DNA of 29,812 bases from positions 1-29,812 of the forward strand of contig JBFXII010000001.1 in NCBI GenBank assembly GCA_050176095.1. The letters run 5' to 3'. Below are positions 1,391 to 14,599 of this stretch, piece after piece; position 1 is the stretch's first letter; the number at the start of each line of letters is the position of its first letter. The DNA is from Desulfomonilaceae bacterium (GTDB lineage: Bacteria > Desulfobacterota > Desulfomonilia > Desulfomonilales > Desulfomonilaceae). Below the pieces are notes generated by a model. That model was given only the letters and a program-made list of their open reading frames with translations. It searched no databases and had not been told where the DNA came from. Made by a program: the position numbers and the translations under genes.

Positions 1391-1672
1391 ATGATGGCTG
1401 ATTGTGGAAAAGCCAAACAATCATACAACAAGATACTTGACCTATTGGATCGTAAAGGCCTTCTAAAGGAGCGTCTGCCGTATACACCAGGGCTGCTGGA
1501 AGAAGCAATTTTTTTTGCCTACAAAATGAGACTCATCACTCAAGGAGATGTGAAGACCCTACTTGACCTTGACCGGCAAGGACTCAAAAAAATAATCCGG
1601 GAATGGAATAACGGAGATGAGGGAAATTGCATCTGCAGAATGGCCAGAAATCCTTTCGTGGAGGAGCCTTGA
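1391..1672 (+). CDS. Small hypothetical protein (93 aa) with a possible helix-turn-helix-like segment and Cys residues
   Basis: Purine-rich SD-like sequence (GGAGG/GAGGG) precedes ATG at 1391; the track's TTG at 1355 lacks one. Same strand as tupBC. Confidence 0.65.
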   Translation: MMADCGKAKQSYNKILDLLDRKGLLKERLPYTPGLLEEAIFFAYKMRLITQGDVKTLLDLDRQGLKKIIREWNNGDEGNCICRMARNPFVEEP

Positions 1673-1744
1673 ACAGGTCCTCCATTTATATGGATTCCTG
1701 TGACAGTCTATCACGATCAGTGACCGGACAATGGTCTCAAAGAA

Positions 1745-2626
1745 TTACAAAACCTTGTTAAGTGGGTACTCAATAATTCCTGTAGCGCCAGCCTTGAGTA
1801 ATTTCGGTATCAGGCTTCGCACTATCTCTTCCGAAACCACAGACTCTACACTAAACCAATCAGATTTATAGAGACCGGAGACAGTTGGAGCATTCAGAGA
1901 AGGCAAGAGCCCAACCACTGTCTCAAGTTGTTCCTTCGGAACATTCATTTTGAGACCAACCATTTTTCTGGCCTCAAGCGCCGATTGCAACATCAAATGA
2001 ATTTGGTTAATTTTTTCGCGCTTAAAAGGATCGTCAAAGGCTTTTTTGTTTGCTATCAATTGGGTATTGGTGGTCAAAATATTGTGAATTATTCTCAGGC
2101 CATTTGCTTTCAGGGTGCTTCCGGTTTCGGTCACATCCACGATAGCATCAACTACACCTTCGTTAACTTTGGCCTCCGTGCTTCCCCAGGAAAACTCTAT
2201 TTCCACCTTGATATTACGTTCAGAGAAGAACTTCCTTGTTACTCCAACTAATTCTGTGGCAATTCGCTTGCCATTTAAATCTTCGGGAACATGATAGTTA
2301 GAGTCAGCATCGACTGCAAGCACCCAGCGAGCAGGGTTTTGTGAAACTTTTGAATAAACTAAGTCATCAATAACGCGAACATCGGATTCATTTTCAAGAA
2401 TCCAGTCCTTGCCGGTAAGACCAGCATCAAAAGTTCCTGATTCGACGTATCTTGAAATTTCCTGAGCTCTTAAACGAGCCATGATTATTTCATCGTCATC
2501 GACAGATGGGAAATAGCTCCTAGGCGACACGGTGATATTCCAACCCGCTCTACGAAAAAGCTCTATTGTAGCCTGCTCGAGACTGCCTTTGGGAATTACC
2601 AACCTTAATGGATCGTTTCTAATCAA
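1745..2626 (-). CDS. hisG: ATP phosphoribosyltransferase, long form
   Basis: [25 protein letters not shown] and [13 protein letters not shown] motifs, plus the C-terminal regulatory domain ([10 protein letters not shown]...GATGIIEYP). Confidence 0.95.
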
Positions 2627-2987
2627 TCTCTTCCAAGACTCCTTCCTTATTTATTCTCCTGAAAAAACAAGTCCACTTTTTGGTGTGGCAAGCGCCATCT
2701 CCTTGCTGGTCCACCAGCAATAGAATGGTATCCAGATCACAATCGACTAATACTTCCCTCACTATTTGGATGTCACCAGAGGTTGCCCCTTTACGCCAAA
2801 GCTCCTTACGAGAACGACTCCAGTAACATGCTCTGCCTTCCCTCAGTGTTGTCTGAAGAGCCTCCTCATTCATGTAAGCCATCATGAGCACCTTGCCTGA
2901 TCGCACGTCCTGAGCTATGGCAGGGATTAAGCCATTGCCTTTATCAAAATCCAAATCATAACCGTTAGCCACTACCGAGGTTATCAT
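2619..2987 (-). CDS. hisI: Phosphoribosyl-AMP cyclohydrolase (standalone, not fused to HisE)
   Basis: [29 protein letters not shown] and ACH...TCF motifs. ATG at 2987 follows GAGGA and lies clear of the upstream stop at 2992, so it is preferred over the track start at 3005. Confidence 0.93.
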
Positions 2988-2991
2988 TTTC

Positions 2992-3378
2992 TTATTCCTC
3001 TTCACCTTCTGTCAAGAAAGCAGCCTCCTGAGCTTTCAGAATTGCCATCACTATTTCTACGCTTACCCCTGCTTTAGGAGGCTCGACCGTACCATTCATT
3101 ACTCCAGATAAAAGGTTATTTAGAAAATTGATTGCGTCTGATGGGTTTCTGATGAAAAGACCTTCTTTGAAATGATCTTGGGGAGCTTGATTCATATCTG
3201 TATTCCCTGGAAACGCCATGAAATTTGATGGACCTTCCTCTCCACGTGATTCAAGAATGTCCTTGAAAATCTCGATGGCTTCAGACGTGTAATCATCATA
3301 TTCCTCCCTTAATATCCTCTTAATTTCAGACGTGCTATAAGACTCAAGCATTTCTCTATCAATAGAAAAATTTGACAT
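2992..3378 (-). CDS. Acidic hypothetical protein (128 aa)
   Basis: GGAGG SD upstream of ATG at 3378 ([10 protein letters not shown]...). Stop lies 4 nt before the hisI start. Confidence 0.7.
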
Positions 3379-6264: not shown

Positions 6265-7050
6265 ATGAGGGGTCTTATGAACAAAACTTTGGAAAAAGCA
6301 GCTAAAATTATAAGTAGCGCAAAAAACCTTGTTGCTCTCACAGGCGCCGGTATAAGCACCGAATCAGGCATACCCGATTTTAGAAGTCCTGGGGGTTTGT
6401 GGACCAAGGTCGACCCTGGTGAATTTTCTATAGATCGCTTTCTCCAAAATCCGGCGAGATTTTGGAAAATGAGTATTGATTTAAAAAAATCGGGAGACTT
6501 TGATCTTGCGTCCGCAGTTCCCAACGCGGCTCATTATTCGTTAGCAAAAATGGAAAGAAGCGGTTTGATGAAATGCGTCATAACTCAGAATGTCGATAAC
6601 CTGCACCAAAAAGCCGGTTCGATCGAAGTTGTTGAATTTCATGGCAACCTACTTCGAGCCATTTGCATGAAATGCAAATCCCTTGAGTCCATTGAGAAAG
6701 TGGAACAACGCATTTCCTCGGGTCAGCAAGAGACTCCAAGGTGCAATGACTGTGGGGGCCTTCTAAAACCGGATGCAGTTTTTTTTGGCGAACCCATACC
6801 ATCAAAAGCCATGATGATATCTCAGATTCAGTCTCAGAAATGTGATGTTCTACTTGTGATAGGGACATCTTTACAGGTTTTCCCTGCAGCGCAAATCCCT
6901 ATCGTGGCTAAAATGAAAACCCCTCCTGCTACCATAATTGAAATCAATAGGGAACCGTCCGCGCTTCATTCTCAGGTTACAGATCTACTCGTAATTGGTA
7001 GTGCAGGAGAAATTCTTACCAAGATTGACGCCCTACTCAATCAGGTCTAA
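6265..7050 (+). CDS. NAD-dependent protein deacylase (sirtuin/Sir2 family)
   Basis: GAGISTESGIPDFR, TQNVDNLH, catalytic HG, Zn tetrathiolate CMKC...CNDC, KPDAVFFGE, GTSLQVFPA. Alternative start is ATG 6277. Confidence 0.93.
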   Translation: MRGLMNKTLEKAAKIISSAKNLVALTGAGISTESGIPDFRSPGGLWTKVDPGEFSIDRFLQNPARFWKMSIDLKKSGDFDLASAVPNAAHYSLAKMERSGLMKCVITQNVDNLHQKAGSIEVVEFHGNLLRAICMKCKSLESIEKVEQRISSGQQETPRCNDCGGLLKPDAVFFGEPIPSKAMMISQIQSQKCDVLLVIGTSLQVFPAAQIPIVAKMKTPPATIIEINREPSALHSQVTDLLVIGSAGEILTKIDALLNQV

Positions 7051-7069: not shown

Positions 7070-7819
7070 CTAAAAAAGAACGGAGGTTTCTAGGAAAAAA
7101 CCTGTGCGATTGATATCTTGAGTATCGGTATTACTCTTGAATTTAATGTGATCAGCTCTGTAGCCCCCACTGATGGTCCATGTCCAGAACATGTTCACTG
7201 GTATGTCTACTCCACTCATGACCTGCCAGCGCCATGTCTCAAGACTATTGTAATTCCACCAGTCAACCCGTCCCCCAATCTTGGGACGTAAAGCGATGTT
7301 CTCGAAGATCGGATAAAAGGTCCCGTGAAACCCTATTGTGGGAAATGTTAAAGATGTGCTTTCACTGTAGTTGTACAGCTTATCTCCTACAAGAGAGTTG
7401 CTAACTTTCGTATCGTATCCTGCAAAAACAAGGTCCACGTTGCCCCCAAAAAGGATTTGAGGGGTCATGTAAAAATCAAGATCATATCCCAAACGCCAGT
7501 CTCTAATCTTTTCGTAGGACCCATTTACAGACTGATCATAAAGAGTACCAGGTTCAGCGTTTAGCCTGAAAACATGAGCGTTATAAATCCTCAAATCAGC
7601 AAAAAACTCCCACGCAAGTTTGTCCTTTTTTAACCCCATGTTTTCTGATATGCCTATTTTTGTCCTGTCGCTCTGAATGAGGTCCCCTTCTAAAACTGTG
7701 AACCACATTCGGACCCCACCGTCTGCTCTGACATAATTAGGCACTTCCCATGCATACACATTGCCCATAATGAGAAAGCAGGCAATAATTAGCCAGCACA
7801 TAAATAGTATTTTTTTCAT
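7070..7819 (-). CDS. Predicted outer-membrane beta-barrel protein of unknown function
   Basis: Sec signal peptide ending VYA. Many aromatic, alternating strands and a C-terminal strand ending in Phe (GFFLETSVLF), a BAM-type signal. Confidence 0.7.
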   Translation of the reverse strand: MKKILFMCWLIIACFLIMGNVYAWEVPNYVRADGGVRMWFTVLEGDLIQSDRTKIGISENMGLKKDKLAWEFFADLRIYNAHVFRLNAEPGTLYDQSVNGSYEKIRDWRLGYDLDFYMTPQILFGGNVDLVFAGYDTKVSNSLVGDKLYNYSESTSLTFPTIGFHGTFYPIFENIALRPKIGGRVDWWNYNSLETWRWQVMSGVDIPVNMFWTWTISGGYRADHIKFKSNTDTQDINRTGFFLETSVLF

Positions 7820-7950: not shown

Positions 7951-7978
7951 TTGACGTATAGGTATTACATGGTATTAT
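7951..7978 (+). promoter_or_regulatory. sigma70 promoter of the RHH-znuACB operon, overlapped by a direct repeat
   Basis: TTGACG (7951-7956), 16 nt spacer, TATTAT (7973-7978), with an extended -10 TG at 7970-7971. GGTATTA is repeated at 7961-7967 and 7971-7977. Confidence 0.6.
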
Positions 7979-8018
7979 TTTAATTCAGCTCATTAATGAA
8001 TTTCCTAGACGAGGCCTT

Positions 8019-8336
8019 ATGAAAAATCAAAAGCAGGAAATTATCACGTTTAAAGTTCCAGAATCCCTTAGAAACGCAATGAAAGGCATACCTAATCGCT
8101 CAGAATTCATAAGACATGCTGTTCTTGCAGCTTTGGGAAGCATTTGTCCGCTTTGTCGTGGCACGGGGGTTCTTCTACCTCACCAAAAGAATCATTGGGA
8201 CCAGTTCTCCGTTGACCATCGACTAGAAGAATGTGACGCCTGTCATGCCATGCATTTGGTCTGCTCCAACAGGGCGCAAGCAACTCTTAACGATTCAGAA
8301 TTTGCGGATGTCAAAATAGTGAATTTTCAAGAATAA
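8019..8336 (+). CDS. Ribbon-helix-helix (CopG/MetJ/Arc-like) transcription factor with a Cys/His-rich C-terminal domain
   Basis: Alternating beta-strand IITFKV, helix A, and helix B NRSEFIRHAV. Then CPLCRGTG, CDACH and C82. First gene of the znu operon. Confidence 0.75.
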   Translation: MKNQKQEIITFKVPESLRNAMKGIPNRSEFIRHAVLAALGSICPLCRGTGVLLPHQKNHWDQFSVDHRLEECDACHAMHLVCSNRAQATLNDSEFADVKIVNFQE

Positions 8337-8349
8337 ATGTGGAGAATTC

Positions 8350-9324
8350 ATGTCATTGAAGAGGCCCAATTTTTTTGTGTTTTTAGTGGTGATGGGATAT
8401 TGTTTTAGCCAACTTGCTGCCCTTCCAGCTAGGGGGGAACAAATTACTGCGTTTACTGCAATTGAGCCATATGCTTTTTTTGTCGAACAAATCAGCGGAA
8501 ACGCTGTAAGAGTCGAAACTTTGGTTTCTAGTGGCAAGGATCCTCATACCTTTGAGCCCACACCATCCCGATTGTCCAAGCTGAGTTCAGGTAAGATTTA
8601 TTTCAAGACGGGGATGCCGTTTGAAGAAAGGTTGCTGGAAAAATTTCCATCGCTTTTTCCCCACCTCAAGGTGGTAGACACAAACAAGGGTATTATCTAT
8701 AGGAAAATGGAAAATGACAAACATGGATCTAAACCACACATTCACGACAACCACAAGAGACGGGGTGAACATAAATCCAAAGATACGAATGTAGCTCACA
8801 TCAATCAATCTGAATCAAGTCATGGGAACAATCATTCTAATTTGGATCCTCATGTTTGGCTCAGTCCTAAGAATGCAAAAATGATTTGTGAAAATATCGC
8901 AGAGACACTTTCAAGCTTTCTTCCTGAGTATGGCGATCTTTTTCGTAATAACACTCAACACTTGAAGCAAGCGCTCGATTTACTTGATTCTAATTTGAGC
9001 GATTCTTTATCAAAGTTCAAGGGCAAGAGTTTCTATGTTTATCATCCTGCATTCGGATACTTAGCTGATGATTACGGTCTTGTCCAAAGGGCTGTGGAGA
9101 TCGAAGGTAAAGAGCCAACGGCCAAGCAATTGGCAAGATTAATTGATTCTGCTAGGAGAGAAAATGTCAGTGTGGTCTTTGTTGCGCCCCAATTTTCCAA
9201 AAAAGGAGCGAATACCTTGGCACAAGGTATTAACGGTGTAGTGGTTGAAATTGATCCGCTTGAAAGAAATTACATAGCCAATCTGGAAAAGATAGTTCAA
9301 AAGATTCATTCGAGTTTGAAATAG
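8350..9324 (+). CDS. znuA: Zinc ABC transporter substrate-binding protein
   Basis: Cluster A-I ligand motifs DPHTFEP, DPHVWLSP and YHPAFGY, a long His-rich loop and a signal peptide. Confidence 0.88.
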   Translation: MSLKRPNFFVFLVVMGYCFSQLAALPARGEQITAFTAIEPYAFFVEQISGNAVRVETLVSSGKDPHTFEPTPSRLSKLSSGKIYFKTGMPFEERLLEKFPSLFPHLKVVDTNKGIIYRKMENDKHGSKPHIHDNHKRRGEHKSKDTNVAHINQSESSHGNNHSNLDPHVWLSPKNAKMICENIAETLSSFLPEYGDLFRNNTQHLKQALDLLDSNLSDSLSKFKGKSFYVYHPAFGYLADDYGLVQRAVEIEGKEPTAKQLARLIDSARRENVSVVFVAPQFSKKGANTLAQGINGVVVEIDPLERNYIANLEKIVQKIHSSLK

Positions 9325-9326
9325 GT

Positions 9327-10106
9327 GTGAATTTGCCATCAGAACAAGTTGAGATTATTAGAATTAAAGATGTTGACTTTTCCTACAATGGTAGTTTGAT
9401 CCTGGAAGCTGTTGACCTCAATATCCAGAATGGAGATTTTATTTCCATTGTGGGACCGAATGGAGGTGGAAAGACCACATTACTCAAGATCATACTGGGA
9501 CTTTTAAAACCTACCCATGGGACTGTTGAACTTTTTGGATCAAATCCTTCACAATCAAAGAAACGTGTGGGATACATGCCGCAGCACGCTAAATTTGATT
9601 TTCACTTTCCTGTTAGTGTGATGGATGTTGTTCTAATGGGACGTCTAGCCCAGTCGCGTGGAATCGGTCCTTACTCTCGATTGGACAAGCAGGTATGTCT
9701 TGAAAAGCTTAAATTAGTTAAACTTCGAAATGAAGCACGAAGTTCTTTCTCGTCCCTTTCCGGAGGTCAAAGGCAGAGAGTGTTGATTGCAAGAGCTTTG
9801 GCATGCGAACCCGCCCTGCTGTTACTTGATGAGCCAACGTCTAATCTTGACATGGGAATAGAAAACGAAATCTACGAGTTGCTTCGTCAGTTAAACAAAT
9901 CTATCACAATTGTAATGGTATCTCACGACTTGGGCTATGTATCACGGTATGTACAAAGGGTTGTGTGCGTAAAAAAGCGAGTAGTAACCCACCCAACCTC
10001 AGAGATAAATGGTGAAATAATAAACGCGATTTATGGAACACCCATGAAAATGGTGCGTCACGACCAGTGTGATTCGGGGAGGGCTGGAAGTTGCATCAAT
10101 TTTTAA
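9327..10106 (+). CDS. znuC: Metal (Zn) ABC transporter ATP-binding protein
   Basis: GPNGGGKT, GYMPQ, LSGGQRQR, LLDEPT, VSHDL, and a C-terminal His/Cys tail (RHDQC...SC). Confidence 0.88.
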   Translation: MNLPSEQVEIIRIKDVDFSYNGSLILEAVDLNIQNGDFISIVGPNGGGKTTLLKIILGLLKPTHGTVELFGSNPSQSKKRVGYMPQHAKFDFHFPVSVMDVVLMGRLAQSRGIGPYSRLDKQVCLEKLKLVKLRNEARSSFSSLSGGQRQRVLIARALACEPALLLLDEPTSNLDMGIENEIYELLRQLNKSITIVMVSHDLGYVSRYVQRVVCVKKRVVTHPTSEINGEIINAIYGTPMKMVRHDQCDSGRAGSCINF

Positions 10107-10951
10107 CAGACCTGAAATCCTATGAATTTCTTCAAAATGCGTTTCTGGCCTCTATACTAGTTAGCTCAGCGTCTGGAGTTATTGGCCCGATTGTTGTCGT
10201 AAGACGTATCTCATATTTGGCTGGCAGTATTTCGCATACGGTTCTCGGAGGTATCGGCGCAGTAATATTTTTCAATACCCTTTACCCTCAGAATAGTATT
10301 GATCCTCTTTGGGGAGCTGGTTTTGCTGCCCTATTTTCAGCCTTGATAATTGGACTGGTGAGCATTCATGCCAAACAAAGAGAGGACACGGTCATTGGCG
10401 CAATGTGGGCCATTGGTATGGCTTTAGGAATTGTTTTCATTGCCAAGACACCCGGTTATACATCAGATCTTATGGGTTATTTATTCGGTAATATTCTAAT
10501 GGTAACTGAACAGGACCTGTATTTGCTTGTTATTTTAGATATCTTGATTCTGAGCTCCGTCATGCTTTTTTATAATCAATTTCTAGCCGTGTGTTTCGAT
10601 GAGGAGTTCGCATCATTACGCGGATTAAATATAGATATTTATTATTTGTCGCTCCTTGCTATGACAGCTCTCACTGTAGTCGGTTTGGTCACTGTAGTGG
10701 GTATAGTGATGTGTATTGCTCTGCTCACCCTTCCGGCCGCGATTGCGAGCTTATTTTCTAACTCCCTTTGGAAGATAATGTTGATGTCAACACTTCTCAG
10801 CATTCTCTTCACGTCATCGGGTTTAATAATAAGTTATTCGCCGGACATTCCCCCTGGAGCAACGACGATTTTGTTGGCCGGAGGGGCTTATTTACTAGCA
10901 TTAGTTTTTAAGAAAATCTCCAGTCACGGATCTATTTTGACACGGTATTAA
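10091..10951 (+). CDS. znuB: Metal (Zn/Mn) ABC transporter permease
   Basis: ISHTVLGG, YLFGNIL, FDEEFA..RG and VGIVM..ALLTLPAA motifs of the ABC-3 family. TTG start overlaps the end of znuC. Confidence 0.88.
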   Translation: MHQFLTDLKSYEFLQNAFLASILVSSASGVIGPIVVVRRISYLAGSISHTVLGGIGAVIFFNTLYPQNSIDPLWGAGFAALFSALIIGLVSIHAKQREDTVIGAMWAIGMALGIVFIAKTPGYTSDLMGYLFGNILMVTEQDLYLLVILDILILSSVMLFYNQFLAVCFDEEFASLRGLNIDIYYLSLLAMTALTVVGLVTVVGIVMCIALLTLPAAIASLFSNSLWKIMLMSTLLSILFTSSGLIISYSPDIPPGATTILLAGGAYLLALVFKKISSHGSILTRY

Positions 10952-13900
10952 TCGACAAACTTTACTGAAACCACTTTTGAAGCCCCCGGTTCTTCCATGG
11001 TTACACCAAACAAAGCGTCAGCTTCCTCCATGCTCATCTTGTTGTGAGTCACCACGAGAAATTGCGTCTTCTGCGATAATTTTCTAAGCATATTGTTAAA
11101 ACGAGCCAGATTGGAATCATCGAGGGGGGCATCAACCTCATCCAGAAGACAAAAAGGAGACGGATTGATCAGGAAAATCGAAAAGATAAGGGCTACCGCA
11201 GTTAAGGCTTTTTCTCCTCCTGATAGTAGATCCATGTTCTGAAACCTTTTTCCCGGAGGCCTAACCAGTATTGAAACCCCGGTTTCCAGAGGGTTCTCGG
11301 TATCGCTAAGCTCGAGCCTTGCCTGACCACCACCAAACAGGAAGGGGAAAATCTCTCGAAACTGTTGATCTACTTTTTGGAATGTTTCTATAAATCTTTC
11401 ACGTGTCGTCTGGTTGATGGCGTCAATAGTTTCATGAAGTGTGGCTACAGCTTTTCTCAGGTCATTTTGTTGGTTTCTCAAGTATTCGAGACGCTCATCA
11501 ACTGATTTGCTCTCTTCTATAGCTGCTAGATTTACTGGTCCAAATAACGTAAGTTCTTCTCTAACTGAATTAATTTCTTGCTCTGAAATCTCCTCAGTAA
11601 ATGCTTCGGCTTCATTCAAATCAATATTATATTTCTCATGAATTTTATTTTTCGCGTTCAAGATGCTTTCTTCAAGTCTAGCATTCTCGACTTCCAGCTC
11701 GTGCAACTGTTGGGCGTTTTTTTTGACCGTCTTGTTGAGATCCTGAACTTCGTGTTCCAAACTTGAACAATTTTCTTGATAGCTATCAACGGCAGATTTG
11801 AAGGATTCTAGCGATATATTTATTTGCCTATGAGACATCATCAATTGCGTTTCTTGAGAACTGACAGCATGTAATTTCTCGAGAAGCTGTTTTTCCAACT
11901 CCAATCCCTTGATTCTCTCCTCGGACAACTTTTTTAGTTGCTGGTCTGAATAGAATATTTTCTCCTGAGCCGAATTAATTTCTCTTTCCAGGGATCGAAC
12001 TCTTTCACTAAATTTTGCTGATTGAATTTTTGTTTTTTCTATTTTCGCCTGTTGATCAGAATTTTCCTGGTGCAGAACATTACCCATCGACTGATATTTC
12101 TGCTTTTCTAACTCAATAGACTCAGATTTCTTAGTCATGGTTTCAATTAAAGAATCCGTTTGTTGAAGTTCATTGCATATTTGACTAATCTCCTTTGCAA
12201 ATCTTGTTTCAGCCATCTCAAAGGTCTGCATTTGGCTGACAGAAGTGGACAGAACATTCTTGAAGTTTTCATGCTGCGACTGCAGCCTAAGTTCCTCAAT
12301 CTTTAATCGACTGATTTCTTCGGACAAGGTTACGAGTTTGGATTTCAATTGATCAAGTTTTCTTTCCTTTTCATCTAGATCAGCTTTAGCTTGATTCAGA
12401 TCATCAATAAATTTAACCACTTTTTGCTTTAGGTCATTAATTTCATGCCTTTTTTTTAAAACTTGCTCTCCCAGAATTTCTTCTGATCCTCCAGAAACCT
12501 CTCCAAATCGGCTCAAATAGTCGCCTTCTTTTGTCACCAAGTTAATTTGGAGACTATTTTGATCCCATATTTCAGCAGCCTTTCTGAAGTCTTCCACAAC
12601 GAAAACATCTTGAAGTAGAAATCCAGCTAAACTTTCGTATCCTGGACGAACGGTAACCAGATCAATTAGGGGCGTAGCGTTTTCTAGACTTTTTGATGAG
12701 TTATCAATTTTCGAGAATCTAGGCTCAATAGGGAAAAAAGAAACCCTCCCTAAATTATCCTTCTTCAACTGATCGGTGAGGGAAACACTATCCATGACCG
12801 AAGACGAGACAATCATTTCAAACCTATTTTGAAGAACGGCTGCTAATGCTTTGTAGTAAGCCGCAGGAGCGTCAATTATCTCACCAACAGGCTCCAAGAT
12901 TTTCCCGCCTTTTAGTTGATTTTTTTGATTCATTATACGTTTTATAGAATCACGATAGCTATGGTAACCCACTTGGATCTCTTCCAAGGTTTGTAATCTC
13001 GAAAGACAGGCCGAATAATCTTTTTCCCTTTCCCGAATAGAGGTAACAAGTTCTTGTATTACTTTTTGGAGAGAGTTTTTTTCTTGGGACAGTTGTTCTT
13101 CTACGTAAGAGTGTTTTTTCAAGGATTCAGAGATGTGTGCTATTTTGTTGAGAAGAGTTTCTATATTTTTTTTTGCAGATTCTATCTGAGCTAGAATCTC
13201 ACCCCTCTCTACATTTCTTCTTTCGAGCCGAACTTCAAGCTCTTGTTTTCTTCTTAGAAGGCTCTCTTTCTTGTTTCTCGCCAGAGCCGATTCCTGCAAG
13301 GATCTAAAAAGATCATCTCGAAGTCTGTTCAGTAGTTTTCGATTTCGGGAAATTTTTTCAGCCAAGTTTGAATGAAGTTCTTGAGCCGTTTCAAGTTCTT
13401 TACGAAAGTTGATTAGCTTGCCTTTGGCTTCAGAGAGGGCCTGTTCAACAAGGGTGTATTCATCTGAAGCTTTGTTCTTGTTTTCATTCAAGGCGATTGT
13501 TTGGGAATCGACATTTTTCAAGAGTGTTCTGACATCACTGAGACGTTCACTGGTTCTCTCGATTCGGTCTCTATTGGAACGCAGATCCAACTCCAAAGAG
13601 TGTTTTTTTTCTAGGGTATCTCTGTAATCTCCCTCGGCCTTCATTTTGACAAATCTCTGCTTCTCCAAGACAGAGTTTTTTTCAATTAATTTGGCTTCAG
13701 CCTGACCTAGTTCGATCTTTAGTGTAAACATCTTTTGTCTGGCGCTATCAAACTCCTGATTCCATCTTGCAACCTTTTGGATAATCATTGAGATTTCCAT
13801 CGATTGTAGTTTCGATAATAGTTTCTGGTATCTTTGAGCCTTCTGCGATTGCCTGCGCAATGAGATGCTCTGTGACCTTACCTCCCCAATAATGTCCGAT

Positions 13901-14481
13901 AATCTCAAAAGATTCTGATTCGTGGTTTCTAATTTTTTTAAAGCAATTTCCTTTCTGAGCTTGTATTTGTTGACTCCAGCCGCTTCCTCAATTATCAGAC
14001 GACGATCTTCAGGTTTAGCAGCCACAATCTGTTCCACACGTCCTTGTTCAATTATTGCGTATGAATTTTTTCCTACACCTGTGTCCAAAAAGAAATCTGT
14101 TATATCCGATAACCTACAAGGTATATTATTAATTTCGTAATGAGACGACCCATCACGAAAAAGCCTCCGACACACCATTATTTCATCATAATCTGCAAAA
14201 ACGGAACTAAATGCCCGGCTTGAATTGACCAGAATTAAACGAACTTCAGCCAATCCAACTGGTTTAAGAGTTTCAGAGCCGTTAAAAATTACATCGTCCA
14301 TCTTACGGCTACGTAAGACCTTTACACGCTGTTCTCCCATGACCCATCGTAGTGCTTCCAGAATATTACTCTTACCCGATCCGTTGGGACCTACTACACA
14401 GGTCACTCCAGGCCCAAACTCTAATACAGTGCTATCTGGGAAACTCTTGAAACCTTTGATTTCAAGACGCTTAATGCGCAT
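10948..14481 (-). CDS. smc: Chromosome segregation protein SMC
   Basis: N-terminal GFKSF and Walker A GPNGSGKSN, two long coiled coils, hinge G-x6-G-x3-GG (GDYLSRFGEVSGG), C-terminal LSGGE and LLDEVDAPLD. Start placed at ATG 14481 (MRIKRL); the track's GTG at 14493 is an alternative. Confidence 0.95.
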   Translation of the reverse strand: MRIKRLEIKGFKSFPDSTVLEFGPGVTCVVGPNGSGKSNILEALRWVMGEQRVKVLRSRKMDDVIFNGSETLKPVGLAEVRLILVNSSRAFSSVFADYDEIMVCRRLFRDGSSHYEINNIPCRLSDITDFFLDTGVGKNSYAIIEQGRVEQIVAAKPEDRRLIIEEAAGVNKYKLRKEIALKKLETTNQNLLRLSDIIGEVRSQSISLRRQSQKAQRYQKLLSKLQSMEISMIIQKVARWNQEFDSARQKMFTLKIELGQAEAKLIEKNSVLEKQRFVKMKAEGDYRDTLEKKHSLELDLRSNRDRIERTSERLSDVRTLLKNVDSQTIALNENKNKASDEYTLVEQALSEAKGKLINFRKELETAQELHSNLAEKISRNRKLLNRLRDDLFRSLQESALARNKKESLLRRKQELEVRLERRNVERGEILAQIESAKKNIETLLNKIAHISESLKKHSYVEEQLSQEKNSLQKVIQELVTSIREREKDYSACLSRLQTLEEIQVGYHSYRDSIKRIMNQKNQLKGGKILEPVGEIIDAPAAYYKALAAVLQNRFEMIVSSSVMDSVSLTDQLKKDNLGRVSFFPIEPRFSKIDNSSKSLENATPLIDLVTVRPGYESLAGFLLQDVFVVEDFRKAAEIWDQNSLQINLVTKEGDYLSRFGEVSGGSEEILGEQVLKKRHEINDLKQKVVKFIDDLNQAKADLDEKERKLDQLKSKLVTLSEEISRLKIEELRLQSQHENFKNVLSTSVSQMQTFEMAETRFAKEISQICNELQQTDSLIETMTKKSESIELEKQKYQSMGNVLHQENSDQQAKIEKTKIQSAKFSERVRSLEREINSAQEKIFYSDQQLKKLSEERIKGLELEKQLLEKLHAVSSQETQLMMSHRQINISLESFKSAVDSYQENCSSLEHEVQDLNKTVKKNAQQLHELEVENARLEESILNAKNKIHEKYNIDLNEAEAFTEEISEQEINSVREELTLFGPVNLAAIEESKSVDERLEYLRNQQNDLRKAVATLHETIDAINQTTRERFIETFQKVDQQFREIFPFLFGGGQARLELSDTENPLETGVSILVRPPGKRFQNMDLLSGGEKALTAVALIFSIFLINPSPFCLLDEVDAPLDDSNLARFNNMLRKLSQKTQFLVVTHNKMSMEEADALFGVTMEEPGASKVVSVKFVD

Positions 14482-14599
14482 AAGCCAACTCACGATGCAA
14501 CTAAGAGATTTTTGGCGGATACTATTAGGAGAGTCAGTTGAAGTAAAGACAAAAGAGCATGGGGCAGTTCTTAAATCTGAACTTATGTAATTTGCCCAA

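What the first reader, a model, noticed from the sequence alone, without database searches (positions are those of the whole stretch)
8019..8336. RHH regulator with a Cys/His-rich domain leading znuACB: candidate new class of zinc metalloregulator
Seen: residues 8-39 form a ribbon-helix-helix, followed by C43-P-L-C46-R-G-T-G (the CxxCxGxG pattern of DnaJ-type zinc fingers), H55, H59, H67, C72-x2-C75-H76, H79 and C82. The gene ends 13 nt before znuA. Established: znuABC is normally controlled by Zur (Fur family) or AdcR (MarR family), and the known RHH metalloregulator NikR uses an ACT-like nickel domain rather than a Cys finger. Inference: this is a zinc (or other metal) co-repressed transcription factor of an architecture I do not know to have been characterised. 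With the phased repeat on its promoter it forms a complete, testable regulator-operator-transporter unit.
Basis: partly seen in the sequence, partly recalled or inferred. Interest (0 to 1): 0.8.

Follow-up and report, generated by a model that had tools for sequence, protein, structure and literature searches.

The report
Undescribed zinc-importer repressor family
The small first gene of this zinc-importer operon encodes a DNA-binding protein with a conserved cysteine/histidine tail; its family is widespread and unstudied, and it sits on one conserved DNA site in front of zinc-uptake genes in many bacterial phyla, so it is probably a new kind of zinc-sensing repressor.

Summary
ORF 8019-8336 (+) encodes a 105-aa protein with an N-terminal ribbon-helix-helix (RHH) and a Cys/His tail, 13 nt upstream of znuA-znuC-znuB. 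It matches no Pfam or NCBIfam model above cut-off, no solved structure and no paper I could find.

- **Spread:** relatives occur in 313 GTDB species genomes from at least seven phyla, one copy per genome where I counted copies (64 same-class genomes).
- **Linkage:** in 73 of 77 informative loci the gene lies directly upstream of znu genes on the same strand.
- **Operator:** two 7-bp palindromes (GTAWTAC-N3-GTAWTAW) lie 5 nt after a TTGACA -35, and the second box is the -10. A loose pattern finds this site in 65 of 80 upstream regions, about 195-fold enriched.
- **Trans evidence:** ten genomes have an operon that is only RHH-znuC-znuB. In eight of them the same operator also precedes the unlinked znuA.
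- **Transporter:** ZnuA keeps the three His ligands and His-rich loop of Synechocystis ZnuA.

Best reading: an autoregulated, zinc-co-repressed local repressor of zinc uptake. Regulation of znu is strongly supported. Zinc sensing is inferred, and replacement of Zur is not shown. H55 and H76 are not conserved. Earlier agents in this scan reached the same reading for this family on other genomes.

The parts
7951..7956 (+). -35 hexamer TTGACG of the operon promoter
   Evidence: It is part of the best promoter-like site of the region, 10 of 12 matches with a TG-extended -10. A TTGAC/TTGCC hexamer ends 3-7 nt (mode 5) before operator box 1 in 55 of 65 homologous loci.
7962..7978 (+). Operator. Box 1 is GTATTAC (7962-7968) and box 2 is GTATTAT (7972-7978), with centres 10 bp apart. 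Box 2 contains the -10 hexamer TATTAT (7973-7978).
   Evidence: The direct repeat was found. The motif GTAWTAC-N3-GTAWTAW is present in 65 of 80 upstream regions across phyla, at 5.5 per kb against 0.028 per kb elsewhere in the same loci. It is the only exact match in the 3.0-Mb genome.
8011..8014 (+). Shine-Dalgarno GAGG of the regulator gene
   Evidence: Read directly from the sequence.
8019..8336 (+). Regulator gene, 105 aa: RHH plus a Cys/His zinc-finger tail
8037..8138 (+). RHH DNA-binding domain (residues 7-40). The beta-strand is E7-V13 with invariant T10, F11 and K12. Helix A is 15-21. The G23-I-P-N-R-S28 turn follows, then helix B at 27-40.
   Evidence: Invariant columns. AF2 secondary structure. 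The strand forms in the natural tandem-fusion model. Structural matches to RHH proteins.
8139..8270 (+). Cys/His domain (residues 41-84): CxxCxGxG knuckle 43-50, helix 54-66 (H59), and beta-hairpin 67-71/78-82 with C72-x2-C75 in the turn. H67 lies across from C82, and H79 is in the second strand.
   Evidence: Conservation counts. AF2 model with pLDDT 89-94 over residues 41-80. The only weak sequence similarity is to anti-TRAP and DnaJ zinc fingers. No fold match in PDB.
8350..9324 (+). znuA, the periplasmic zinc-binding protein, with a His-rich loop
   Evidence: PF01297 2e-62. The closest solved relative is Synechocystis ZnuA 1PQ4 at E 1e-51; the DPH, DPH and HP ligand motifs and the His-rich loop are aligned.
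9327..10106 (+). znuC, the ABC ATPase (GTG start)
   Evidence: PF00005 6e-31; AztA/ZnuC-type NCBIfam hits.
10091..10951 (+). znuB, the ABC-3 permease; it overlaps the znuC end by 16 nt
   Evidence: PF00950 3e-68.

Best explanation
The gene encodes the local, autoregulated repressor of the zinc importer.

Proposed mechanism:
1. RHH dimers read the two GTAWTAC-type palindromes, which lie one helical turn apart between the -35 and -10 elements. The second palindrome is the -10. Occupancy therefore blocks RNA polymerase at the promoter of RHH-znuA-znuC-znuB. (The promoter-operator architecture is shown; binding is inferred.)
2. The C-terminal 45 residues fold into a small domain. It should hold one structural Cys4 zinc (C43, C46, C72, C75) and a second, exchangeable site made of H59, H67 and C82, plus H79 or E71. 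(Inferred from conservation and the model.)
3. When cytoplasmic zinc is sufficient, the second site fills. This stabilises the domain or the dimer-dimer contacts needed for cooperative binding of two dimers, and the operon is shut off. When zinc falls, the site empties, the repressor leaves, and both the transporter and the repressor are made. (Inferred by analogy with Zur, AdcR and NikR.)
For: The protein is a real, conserved family.
- It has 211 clusters at 90% identity and 282 at 50% identity.
- It occurs in 313 species genomes from Thermodesulfobacteriota, Planctomycetota, Zixibacteria, Spirochaetota, Ignavibacteria-type, Bacillota and Hydrogenedentes.
- It is present in exactly one copy in 64 of 81 genomes of the window's class.

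It is linked to znu genes.
- In 73 of 77 loci with enough downstream DNA, a znu gene follows within 600 nt on the same strand. In one further locus the two are separated by a transposase.
- Homologues at only 37-40% identity are still in znu operons, with varied gene order: znuA-RHH, RHH-x-fused znuCB, RHH-znuACB.

The operator is conserved.
- It is found in 65 of 80 upstream regions, about 195-fold enriched over the rest of the same loci.
- A -35 hexamer lies at a fixed 5-nt offset in 55 of 65 of these, and box 2 serves as the -10.
- The DNA-reading strand residues T10 and K12 are invariant, which matches an invariant operator.

The regulator appears to act in trans.
- In 8 of 10 genomes whose RHH operon lacks znuA, the operator also lies 45-200 nt upstream of the unlinked znuA.
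- In four of those eight it is the only other exact genome-wide match. Reversed-pattern controls gave 0-1 hits per genome.

The transporter is of the zinc type. The closest solved relative is Synechocystis ZnuA, and the three His ligands and the His-rich loop are kept.

The tail looks like a metal site.
- Eight conserved Cys/His positions fall into two groups.
- The AF2 model is confident (pLDDT 87.9). It places the two CxxC knuckles together and puts H67 across the hairpin from C82.
Against: - There is no experiment of any kind. Metal binding, stoichiometry and metal-dependent DNA binding are all untested.
- AlphaFold gives no metal positions, and I could not read coordinates. The two-site assignment rests on conservation and secondary structure only.
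- H79 is conserved in only 63% of homologues, so the fourth ligand of the putative sensing site is uncertain.
- Most hosts keep Fur-family paralogues, and their number does not drop in genomes that have the RHH gene. A Zur acting in parallel cannot be excluded.
- Three loci have the gene without nearby znu genes.
- A 36%-identity sister group (P0223) and a tandem fusion (P0121) sit in other contexts.
Confidence: 0.7

Rival explanations
1. Same repressor and operator, but the effector is another metal (Mn, Fe, Co, Ni or Cd) and the transporter is not zinc-specific.
For: Cluster A-I ABC importers include Mn and Fe systems, and NCBIfam gives sub-threshold hits to MntC/MntA models as well as ZnuA/AztC. 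A His/Cys site can bind several metals in vitro.
Against: The top solved relative of the binding protein is zinc-specific Synechocystis ZnuA at E 1e-51, far ahead of the Mn/Fe binders at about 1e-17. All three His ligands are kept, including the third position, which is Glu in Mn binders (from my own knowledge). The His-rich loop typical of zinc binders is present.
Confidence: 0.1
2. The protein is the znu operon's repressor, but its Cys/His domain is purely structural or is a thiol-redox switch. The signal is then not zinc occupancy. It could be oxidation or sulfide chemistry, a protein partner, or simple autoregulatory feedback.
For: The only sequence resemblance of the tail is to structural zinc fingers of the DnaJ and anti-TRAP type. 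The fourth ligand of the second site is not well conserved. Many hosts are anaerobes.
Against: H59, H67 and C82 are kept in about 88% of homologues beyond the four Cys that a structural site would need. An uptake operon for a toxic metal with no metal feedback would be unusual. The strict restriction of the regulon to znu genes points to zinc as the signal.
Confidence: 0.15
3. It is a generic small RHH protein, such as a type II antitoxin, a plasmid copy-control protein or a partition protein, that merely happens to lie beside znu genes.
For: The structural matches of the N-terminal domain include many antitoxins and the ParG/omega proteins.
Against: No toxin partner is present. The gene is chromosomal and single-copy, and it is linked to znu genes in 95% of loci across seven phyla. 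Its operator also precedes unlinked znuA genes.
Confidence: 0.02

Closest known systems
NikR (nickel-responsive RHH repressor of nikABCDE)
   Same: It has an N-terminal RHH DNA-binding domain (rmsd 1.7-1.9 A over 37-39 residues to NikR structures). It has a C-terminal metal-binding part with His/Cys ligands. It represses a metal ABC importer, and holo-repressor logic is proposed.
   Different: The C-terminal part is a 45-residue CxxCxGxG/CxxC finger, not the roughly 80-residue ACT-like tetramerisation domain. There is no NikR family hit in Pfam or NCBIfam. The operator is two adjacent 7-bp palindromes 10 bp apart, not NikR's widely spaced inverted half-sites (the NikR site is from my own knowledge). 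The target is a zinc importer, not a nickel importer.
Zur (Fur family) and AdcR (MarR family), the established zinc-uptake repressors
   Same: The proposed role is the same: a zinc-loaded repressor covering the promoter of znuABC-type genes, often encoded in the operon it controls. Zur also has a structural Cys4 site plus a sensing His/Cys site (from my own knowledge).
   Different: The fold is unrelated. There is no winged helix and no Fur or MarR profile match. The protein is half the size. The regulon appears limited to the transporter genes, whereas Zur regulons usually include ribosomal paralogues and COG0523 proteins (from my own knowledge).
MetJ, Arc, CopG and omega: RHH repressors that bind tandem sites cooperatively
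   Same: Short repeated boxes lie one helical turn apart over a promoter, each presumably read by one RHH dimer. MetJ also needs a small co-repressor (from my own knowledge).
   Different: None of these carries a zinc-finger tail, and none is known to be metal-controlled.
Anti-TRAP and the DnaJ cysteine-rich zinc finger
   Same: A CxxCxGxG knuckle followed by a helix. This is the best, though weak, PDB sequence hit: 3LCZ at E 0.004. Pfam DnaJ_CXXCXGXG scores 15 bits.
   Different: The score is below the family cut-off of 32.7 bits. The second knuckle is a plain CxxC. Extra conserved His/Cys residues are present. Neither known protein binds DNA.

Membership tests
Ribbon-helix-helix (CopG/Arc/MetJ) superfamily | An N-terminal beta-strand with alternating polar and hydrophobic residues, then two helices joined by a G-x-(S/T/N)-type turn | tested here: met
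   The I8-V13 strand has invariant T10, F11 and K12. Helices are at 15-21 and 27-40, and the G23-I-P-N-R-S28 turn is invariant. Nearly all of the top 30 or so VIA-align matches are RHH domains, at rmsd 1.5-2.2 A and Z about 3, which is low as expected for a 40-residue monomer.
Ribbon-helix-helix (CopG/Arc/MetJ) superfamily | Profile match above the curated threshold | tested here: not met
   RHH_1 scores 12.2 bits against a cut-off of 20.5, and aCcr1_fam scores 21.5 against 60. Sequence profiles therefore miss this family, and membership rests on structure.
Ribbon-helix-helix (CopG/Arc/MetJ) superfamily | Dimerisation through an antiparallel two-stranded ribbon | tested here: inconclusive
   In the model of the natural tandem fusion P0121, both N-terminal strands (14-20 and 107-113) form at pLDDT 81-89, whereas the monomer model shows none. 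I could not inspect coordinates to confirm that the strands pair.
NikR | C-terminal ACT-like tetramerisation domain carrying the high-affinity Ni site | tested here: not met
   No NikR family hit in Pfam or NCBIfam at E up to 1. The tail is 45 residues of knuckle, helix and hairpin. Only the RHH part aligns to NikR structures.
Zur / Fur family | Winged-helix DNA-binding domain plus dimerisation domain (PF01475) | tested here: not met
   No PF01475 hit for this protein. The genome's two Fur-family genes lie on other contigs.
DnaJ-type CR zinc finger (PF00684) | Paired CxxCxGxG motifs, with a score above 32.7 bits | tested here: not met
   Only one CxxCxGxG motif (43-50) is present; the second motif is CxxC only. 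The score is 15.1 bits.
Zinc-responsive transcriptional repressor (functional class) | The operator overlaps the promoter of zinc-uptake genes | tested here: met
   The operator fills the spacer and the -10 of the promoter. It is conserved across phyla. It is also present upstream of unlinked znuA genes.
Zinc-responsive transcriptional repressor (functional class) | DNA binding that depends on zinc occupancy of a sensing site | not testable with these tools
   Only conservation of H59, H67, C82 and H79 and the model topology bear on this. It needs biochemistry.

The most novel reading that the evidence does not exclude
This is a new structural class of bacterial metal sensor: an RHH dimer with a two-site zinc-finger tail. 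It takes the place of Zur as the zinc-uptake regulator in Desulfomonilia, many Planctomycetota, Zixibacteria, Spirochaetota and others. Its regulon is confined to the importer, and its allosteric mechanism (zinc-dependent folding or dimer-dimer bridging of a mini-domain) differs from those of all described sensor families.
Probability: 0.6. Interest if true: 0.8.

Novelty: new variant of a known kind. Interest (0 to 1): 0.72.

Why it matters
Bacterial metal sensing is thought to be covered by about ten structural families, and NikR is the only RHH member in a 2024 comprehensive review (PMC11672702). If this protein senses zinc, it adds a new and very small (about 95 aa) sensor architecture.

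It would also explain how zinc uptake is controlled in large, mostly uncultured lineages. The defined 17-bp operator would allow znu regulons to be annotated from sequence alone. It would offer a compact zinc-responsive switch for reporters as well. The regulator, operator and targets are all defined here, so the hypothesis can be tested directly with a gel shift and a reporter.

Tried and rejected
- **Wider regulon.** I scanned for exact operator matches in the window's genome (one hit, the operon itself) and in five large genomes of other phyla. The only extra hit lay beside parB/parS-like sequence in one Planctomycetota genome, and the reversed-pattern control count was as high, so I treat it as chance. 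I found no ribosomal paralogues, COG0523 or TonB receptors.
- **Complementary distribution with Zur.** Fur-family counts per genome are similar in RHH-positive genomes (about 2.4) and RHH-negative genomes (about 1.8) of the same class. In four RHH-negative genomes that have znuA, the znu genes (znuACB in three) have neither the operator nor an adjacent Fur gene. This test is uninformative because Pfam cannot separate Zur from Fur and PerR.
- **Fold searches for the C-terminal domain.** Foldseek against PDB gave nothing at E below 1. VIA-align wide matched only the RHH part. AFDB clusters returned only unnamed or 'CopG family' homologues.
- **Naming a cultured host.** A 6.5-Mb, 2-contig, 99%-complete genome of the same family (G055) carries the operon and the operator.
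- **Antitoxin or partition-protein reading.** Rejected on genomic context.

Full report
**Observation.** The window has an ATG-started ORF at 8019-8336 (+) of 105 codons, preceded by GAGG at 8011-8014. A 13-nt gap follows, then znuA (8350-9324), znuC (9327-10106) and znuB (10091-10951). The region upstream holds the best sigma-70-like promoter of the neighbourhood, TTGACG-16-TATTAT at 7951-7978 with a TG extension. An exact GGTATTA repeat lies at 7961-7967 and 7971-7977, spaced 10 bp.

**What the protein is.** No Pfam or NCBIfam model reaches its cut-off. The only hits are weak ones to RHH_1, aCcr1 (an RHH family), DnaJ_CXXCXGXG and Lar. The family is nevertheless large and tightly conserved:
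- 211 clusters at 90% identity, with 58-87% identity to the query.
- 282 clusters at 50% identity with E up to 1e-3.
- 313 GTDB species genomes.

Sources name the members only 'CopG family transcriptional regulator', 'ribbon-helix-helix domain-containing protein' or 'hypothetical protein'. Hosts include Desulfomonilaceae and Syntrophaceae-type Thermodesulfobacteriota, Planctomycetota (including Brocadiaceae, Thermoguttaceae and Phycisphaerales), Zixibacteria, Spirochaetota (including Treponema), Ignavibacteriaceae, Bacillota and Hydrogenedentes. The window itself is from an uncultured Desulfomonile MAG (L001, 99% identity).

In a sample of 81 genomes of the window's class, 64 have the gene, always as a single copy.

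**Conserved residues.** In the 20-sequence alignment the invariant residues are T10, F11, K12, L17, A20, G23-I-P-N-R-S28, F30, I31, R32, A34, L39, C43, P44, C46, G48, G50, P54, Q56, H59, H67, C72, C75, H79, V81 and C82. In 67 more diverse sequences the counts fall into tiers:

| Residues | Conserved in |
|---|---|
| C43, C46, C72, C75 | 94-100% |
| H59, H67 | 88% |
| C82 | 85% |
| H79 | 63% |
| H55 | 15% |
| H76 | 39% |

**Structure.** The AlphaFold2 model has mean pLDDT 87.9. It shows:
- helices at 15-21 and 27-40;
- a knuckle around C43/C46;
- a helix at 54-66 carrying H59;
- a hairpin at 67-71/78-82 with C72/C75 in its turn.

In an antiparallel hairpin with this register, H67 faces C82. VIA-align against 48,161 PDB chains matched residues 4-45 almost exclusively to RHH domains (TacA, CopA-SO, PutA, AmrZ, NikR, Arc, omega, ParG) at rmsd 1.5-2.2 A, but matched nothing to the tail. 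Foldseek found nothing in PDB. AFDB clusters returned only uncharacterised homologues. By sequence, the nearest solved proteins are the anti-TRAP zinc fingers, at E 0.004.

A natural tandem fusion of two copies (P0121) folds with both N-terminal strands formed. This is what an intramolecular RHH pseudo-dimer would give, though I could not inspect the coordinates.

**Genomic context.** I classified the 80 closest loci from species genomes.

| Arrangement downstream of the RHH gene | Loci |
|---|---|
| znuA-znuC-znuB | 52 |
| znuC-znuB only | 13 |
| Truncated versions of these at contig ends or with a broken gene | 8 |
| znuACB 2.5 kb downstream, behind an inserted transposase | 1 |
| No znu gene nearby | 3 |
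| Too little downstream DNA to judge | 3 |

That gives 73 of 77 informative loci. More distant homologues tell the same story with different gene orders: znuA-RHH-next gene (P0171, 40%), RHH-znuA (P0185, 39%), RHH-znuACB (P0195, 37%) and RHH-x-fused znuCB (P0178, 40%).

Two outliers exist. A 36%-identity sister group lies next to pilin-like genes, and the tandem fusion lies next to DUF3299, an ABC-2 exporter and MerC.

**Operator.** When the 160 nt upstream of each homologue are lined up, one site recurs across phyla: TTGACA, about 5 nt, G-GTAWTAC-NNN-GTAWTAW.
- A loose pattern finds it in 65 of 80 upstream regions. By eye, most of the rest carry one-mismatch variants.
- Its density is 5.5 per kb there against 0.028 per kb in the remaining 1.56 Mb of the same loci, both strands counted.
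- In 55 of 65 loci a TTGAC/TTGCC hexamer ends 3-7 nt (40 times exactly 5 nt) before box 1.
- Box 2 (GTAATAAT or GTATTAT) is the -10.
- Six loci carry two such operators in tandem.

Each box is a 7-bp palindrome (GTA-W-TAC), which suits a symmetric RHH dimer. Two boxes 10 bp apart suit two dimers on one face of the helix, as in MetJ, Arc or omega (from established knowledge of those systems). The invariance of T10 and K12 on the DNA-reading strand fits the invariance of the site.

**Regulon.** In the window's own 3.0-Mb assembly (80% complete) the exact pattern GTRWTAC-N3-GTAWTA occurs once, at 7962. Base composition alone would predict about 1.3 matches, so this count is not significant by itself. 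In five large genomes from other phyla it occurs only at the RHH promoter, plus one probable chance hit beside parB.

The most telling result comes from genomes whose RHH operon lacks znuA:
- In G086, G087, G088 and G090 the only other exact match in 4-5 Mb lies 45-200 nt upstream of an unlinked znuA, again preceded by TTGACA in three of them.
- I then located znuA in five more such genomes. Four of them (G091, G092, G094, G095) have the operator within one mismatch upstream of znuA, and G094 has two copies.

So 8 of 10 genomes show the same site at two separate transcription units that together encode one transporter. That is the signature of a trans-acting regulator whose regulon is the zinc importer. 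Three of the eight (G086-G088) are close relatives and are not independent.

**Which metal.** The binding protein's nearest solved relative is the zinc-specific Synechocystis ZnuA (1PQ4) at E 1e-51. Mn and Fe binders score about 1e-17. The DPH-T-x-EP, DPH-x-W-L-SP and x-H-P-x-x-x-Y ligand motifs align, as does the long His-rich loop. Zinc is therefore the most likely cargo and the most likely signal.

**Zur.** The window's genome has two Fur-family genes on other contigs. One sits beside rubrerythrin and desulfoferrodoxin and is PerR-like by context. A complete 4.3-Mb Planctomycetota chromosome with the RHH operon has no Fur-family gene, and three other genomes from other phyla (two of them complete chromosomes) have one each. 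Across the class sample, however, Fur-family counts do not differ between genomes with and without the RHH gene. RHH-negative genomes have znu genes (znuACB in three of the four examined) with neither the operator nor an adjacent regulator. I therefore cannot say that the RHH protein replaces Zur. I can only say that it is the regulator physically and cis-regulatorily tied to znu where it occurs.

**Mechanism, and what is shown versus inferred.**
- Shown by sequence comparison: a conserved small RHH protein, a conserved promoter-overlapping operator, linkage in cis and in trans to znu genes, and a zinc-type transporter.
- Inferred: the protein binds that operator as two dimers and represses. 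C43, C46, C72 and C75 hold a structural zinc. H59, H67 and C82 (with H79 or E71) form an exchangeable sensing site. Filling that site promotes DNA binding.

**Literature and earlier notes.** Full-text searches combining ribbon-helix-helix or CopG with znuA, znuABC, zinc uptake, zinc-responsive, zinc homeostasis or zinc sensor returned nothing on this family. The 2024 Chemical Reviews survey of bacterial metal sensors lists NikR as the only RHH sensor (PMC11672702).

Earlier agents in this scan noted the same family on other genomes and reached the same reading. Those are unchecked AI notes and are not independent evidence. Everything above was recomputed here.

**Verdict.** The protein is not a member of NikR, Fur or MarR. 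It works like a local Zur. It is best classed as a new variant, with a new sensor architecture, of the known kind 'metal-responsive repressor of a metal importer'.

Noticed in passing
window 7070-7819 (-) and 6265-7050 (+): A 249-aa predicted outer-membrane beta-barrel protein (weak TIGR04219 hit, no Pfam) is transcribed divergently from the RHH promoter. It is conserved next to a SIR2-family gene in the close relatives L001-L007, L009, L010, L013 and L015. It could be an envelope partner of the importer, but the operator does not overlap its likely promoter.
   Followed up: partly
L110:4999-5430 (-) (genome G055): A 143-aa secreted, extremely His-rich protein is encoded immediately upstream of the RHH-znuA operon, on the same strand, in a 6.5-Mb near-complete genome of the same family. 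It may be a periplasmic metal buffer or chaperone.
   Followed up: no
L053:6945-8704: A transposase (PF21804, in two frames) is inserted between the RHH gene and znuACB in a Desulfobacteraceae MAG. This separates the regulator from its target genes.
   Followed up: partly
L104:4001-4558 (protein P0121): This is a natural tandem fusion of two complete RHH-zinc-finger units in one 185-aa protein. It lies among DUF3299 genes, an ABC-2 exporter and MerC, so the family may also regulate other metal systems.
   Followed up: partly
L097:149-508 (protein P0223): A 36%-identity sister group keeps the RHH and the CxxCxGxG knuckle but lies upstream of unannotated genes and a pilin-like (N_methyl) gene, not znu. 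It probably has a different function.
   Followed up: no
L014, L047, L064, L069, L073 upstream regions; L128: Some promoters carry two complete operators about 22-29 bp apart, giving four boxes. This suggests higher-order cooperative binding in those lineages.
   Followed up: no
L081 (G000:C67) 1495-3212: A Fur-family gene is followed by rubrerythrin and desulfoferrodoxin genes. By context it is a PerR-type peroxide regulon in the window's genome.
   Followed up: partly
L086:1500-1620 (genome G001): A perfect operator-like palindrome lies beside parS-like TGTTTCAC-type repeats upstream of a parB-like gene in a Planctomycetota chromosome. I judged it a chance match because the reversed-pattern control count was equally high.
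   Followed up: partly
window 10948-14493 (-): A 1181-aa SMC chromosome-segregation gene converges on the end of znuB, overlapping it by 4 nt. No terminator-like hairpin was found between them in the scan.
   Followed up: no
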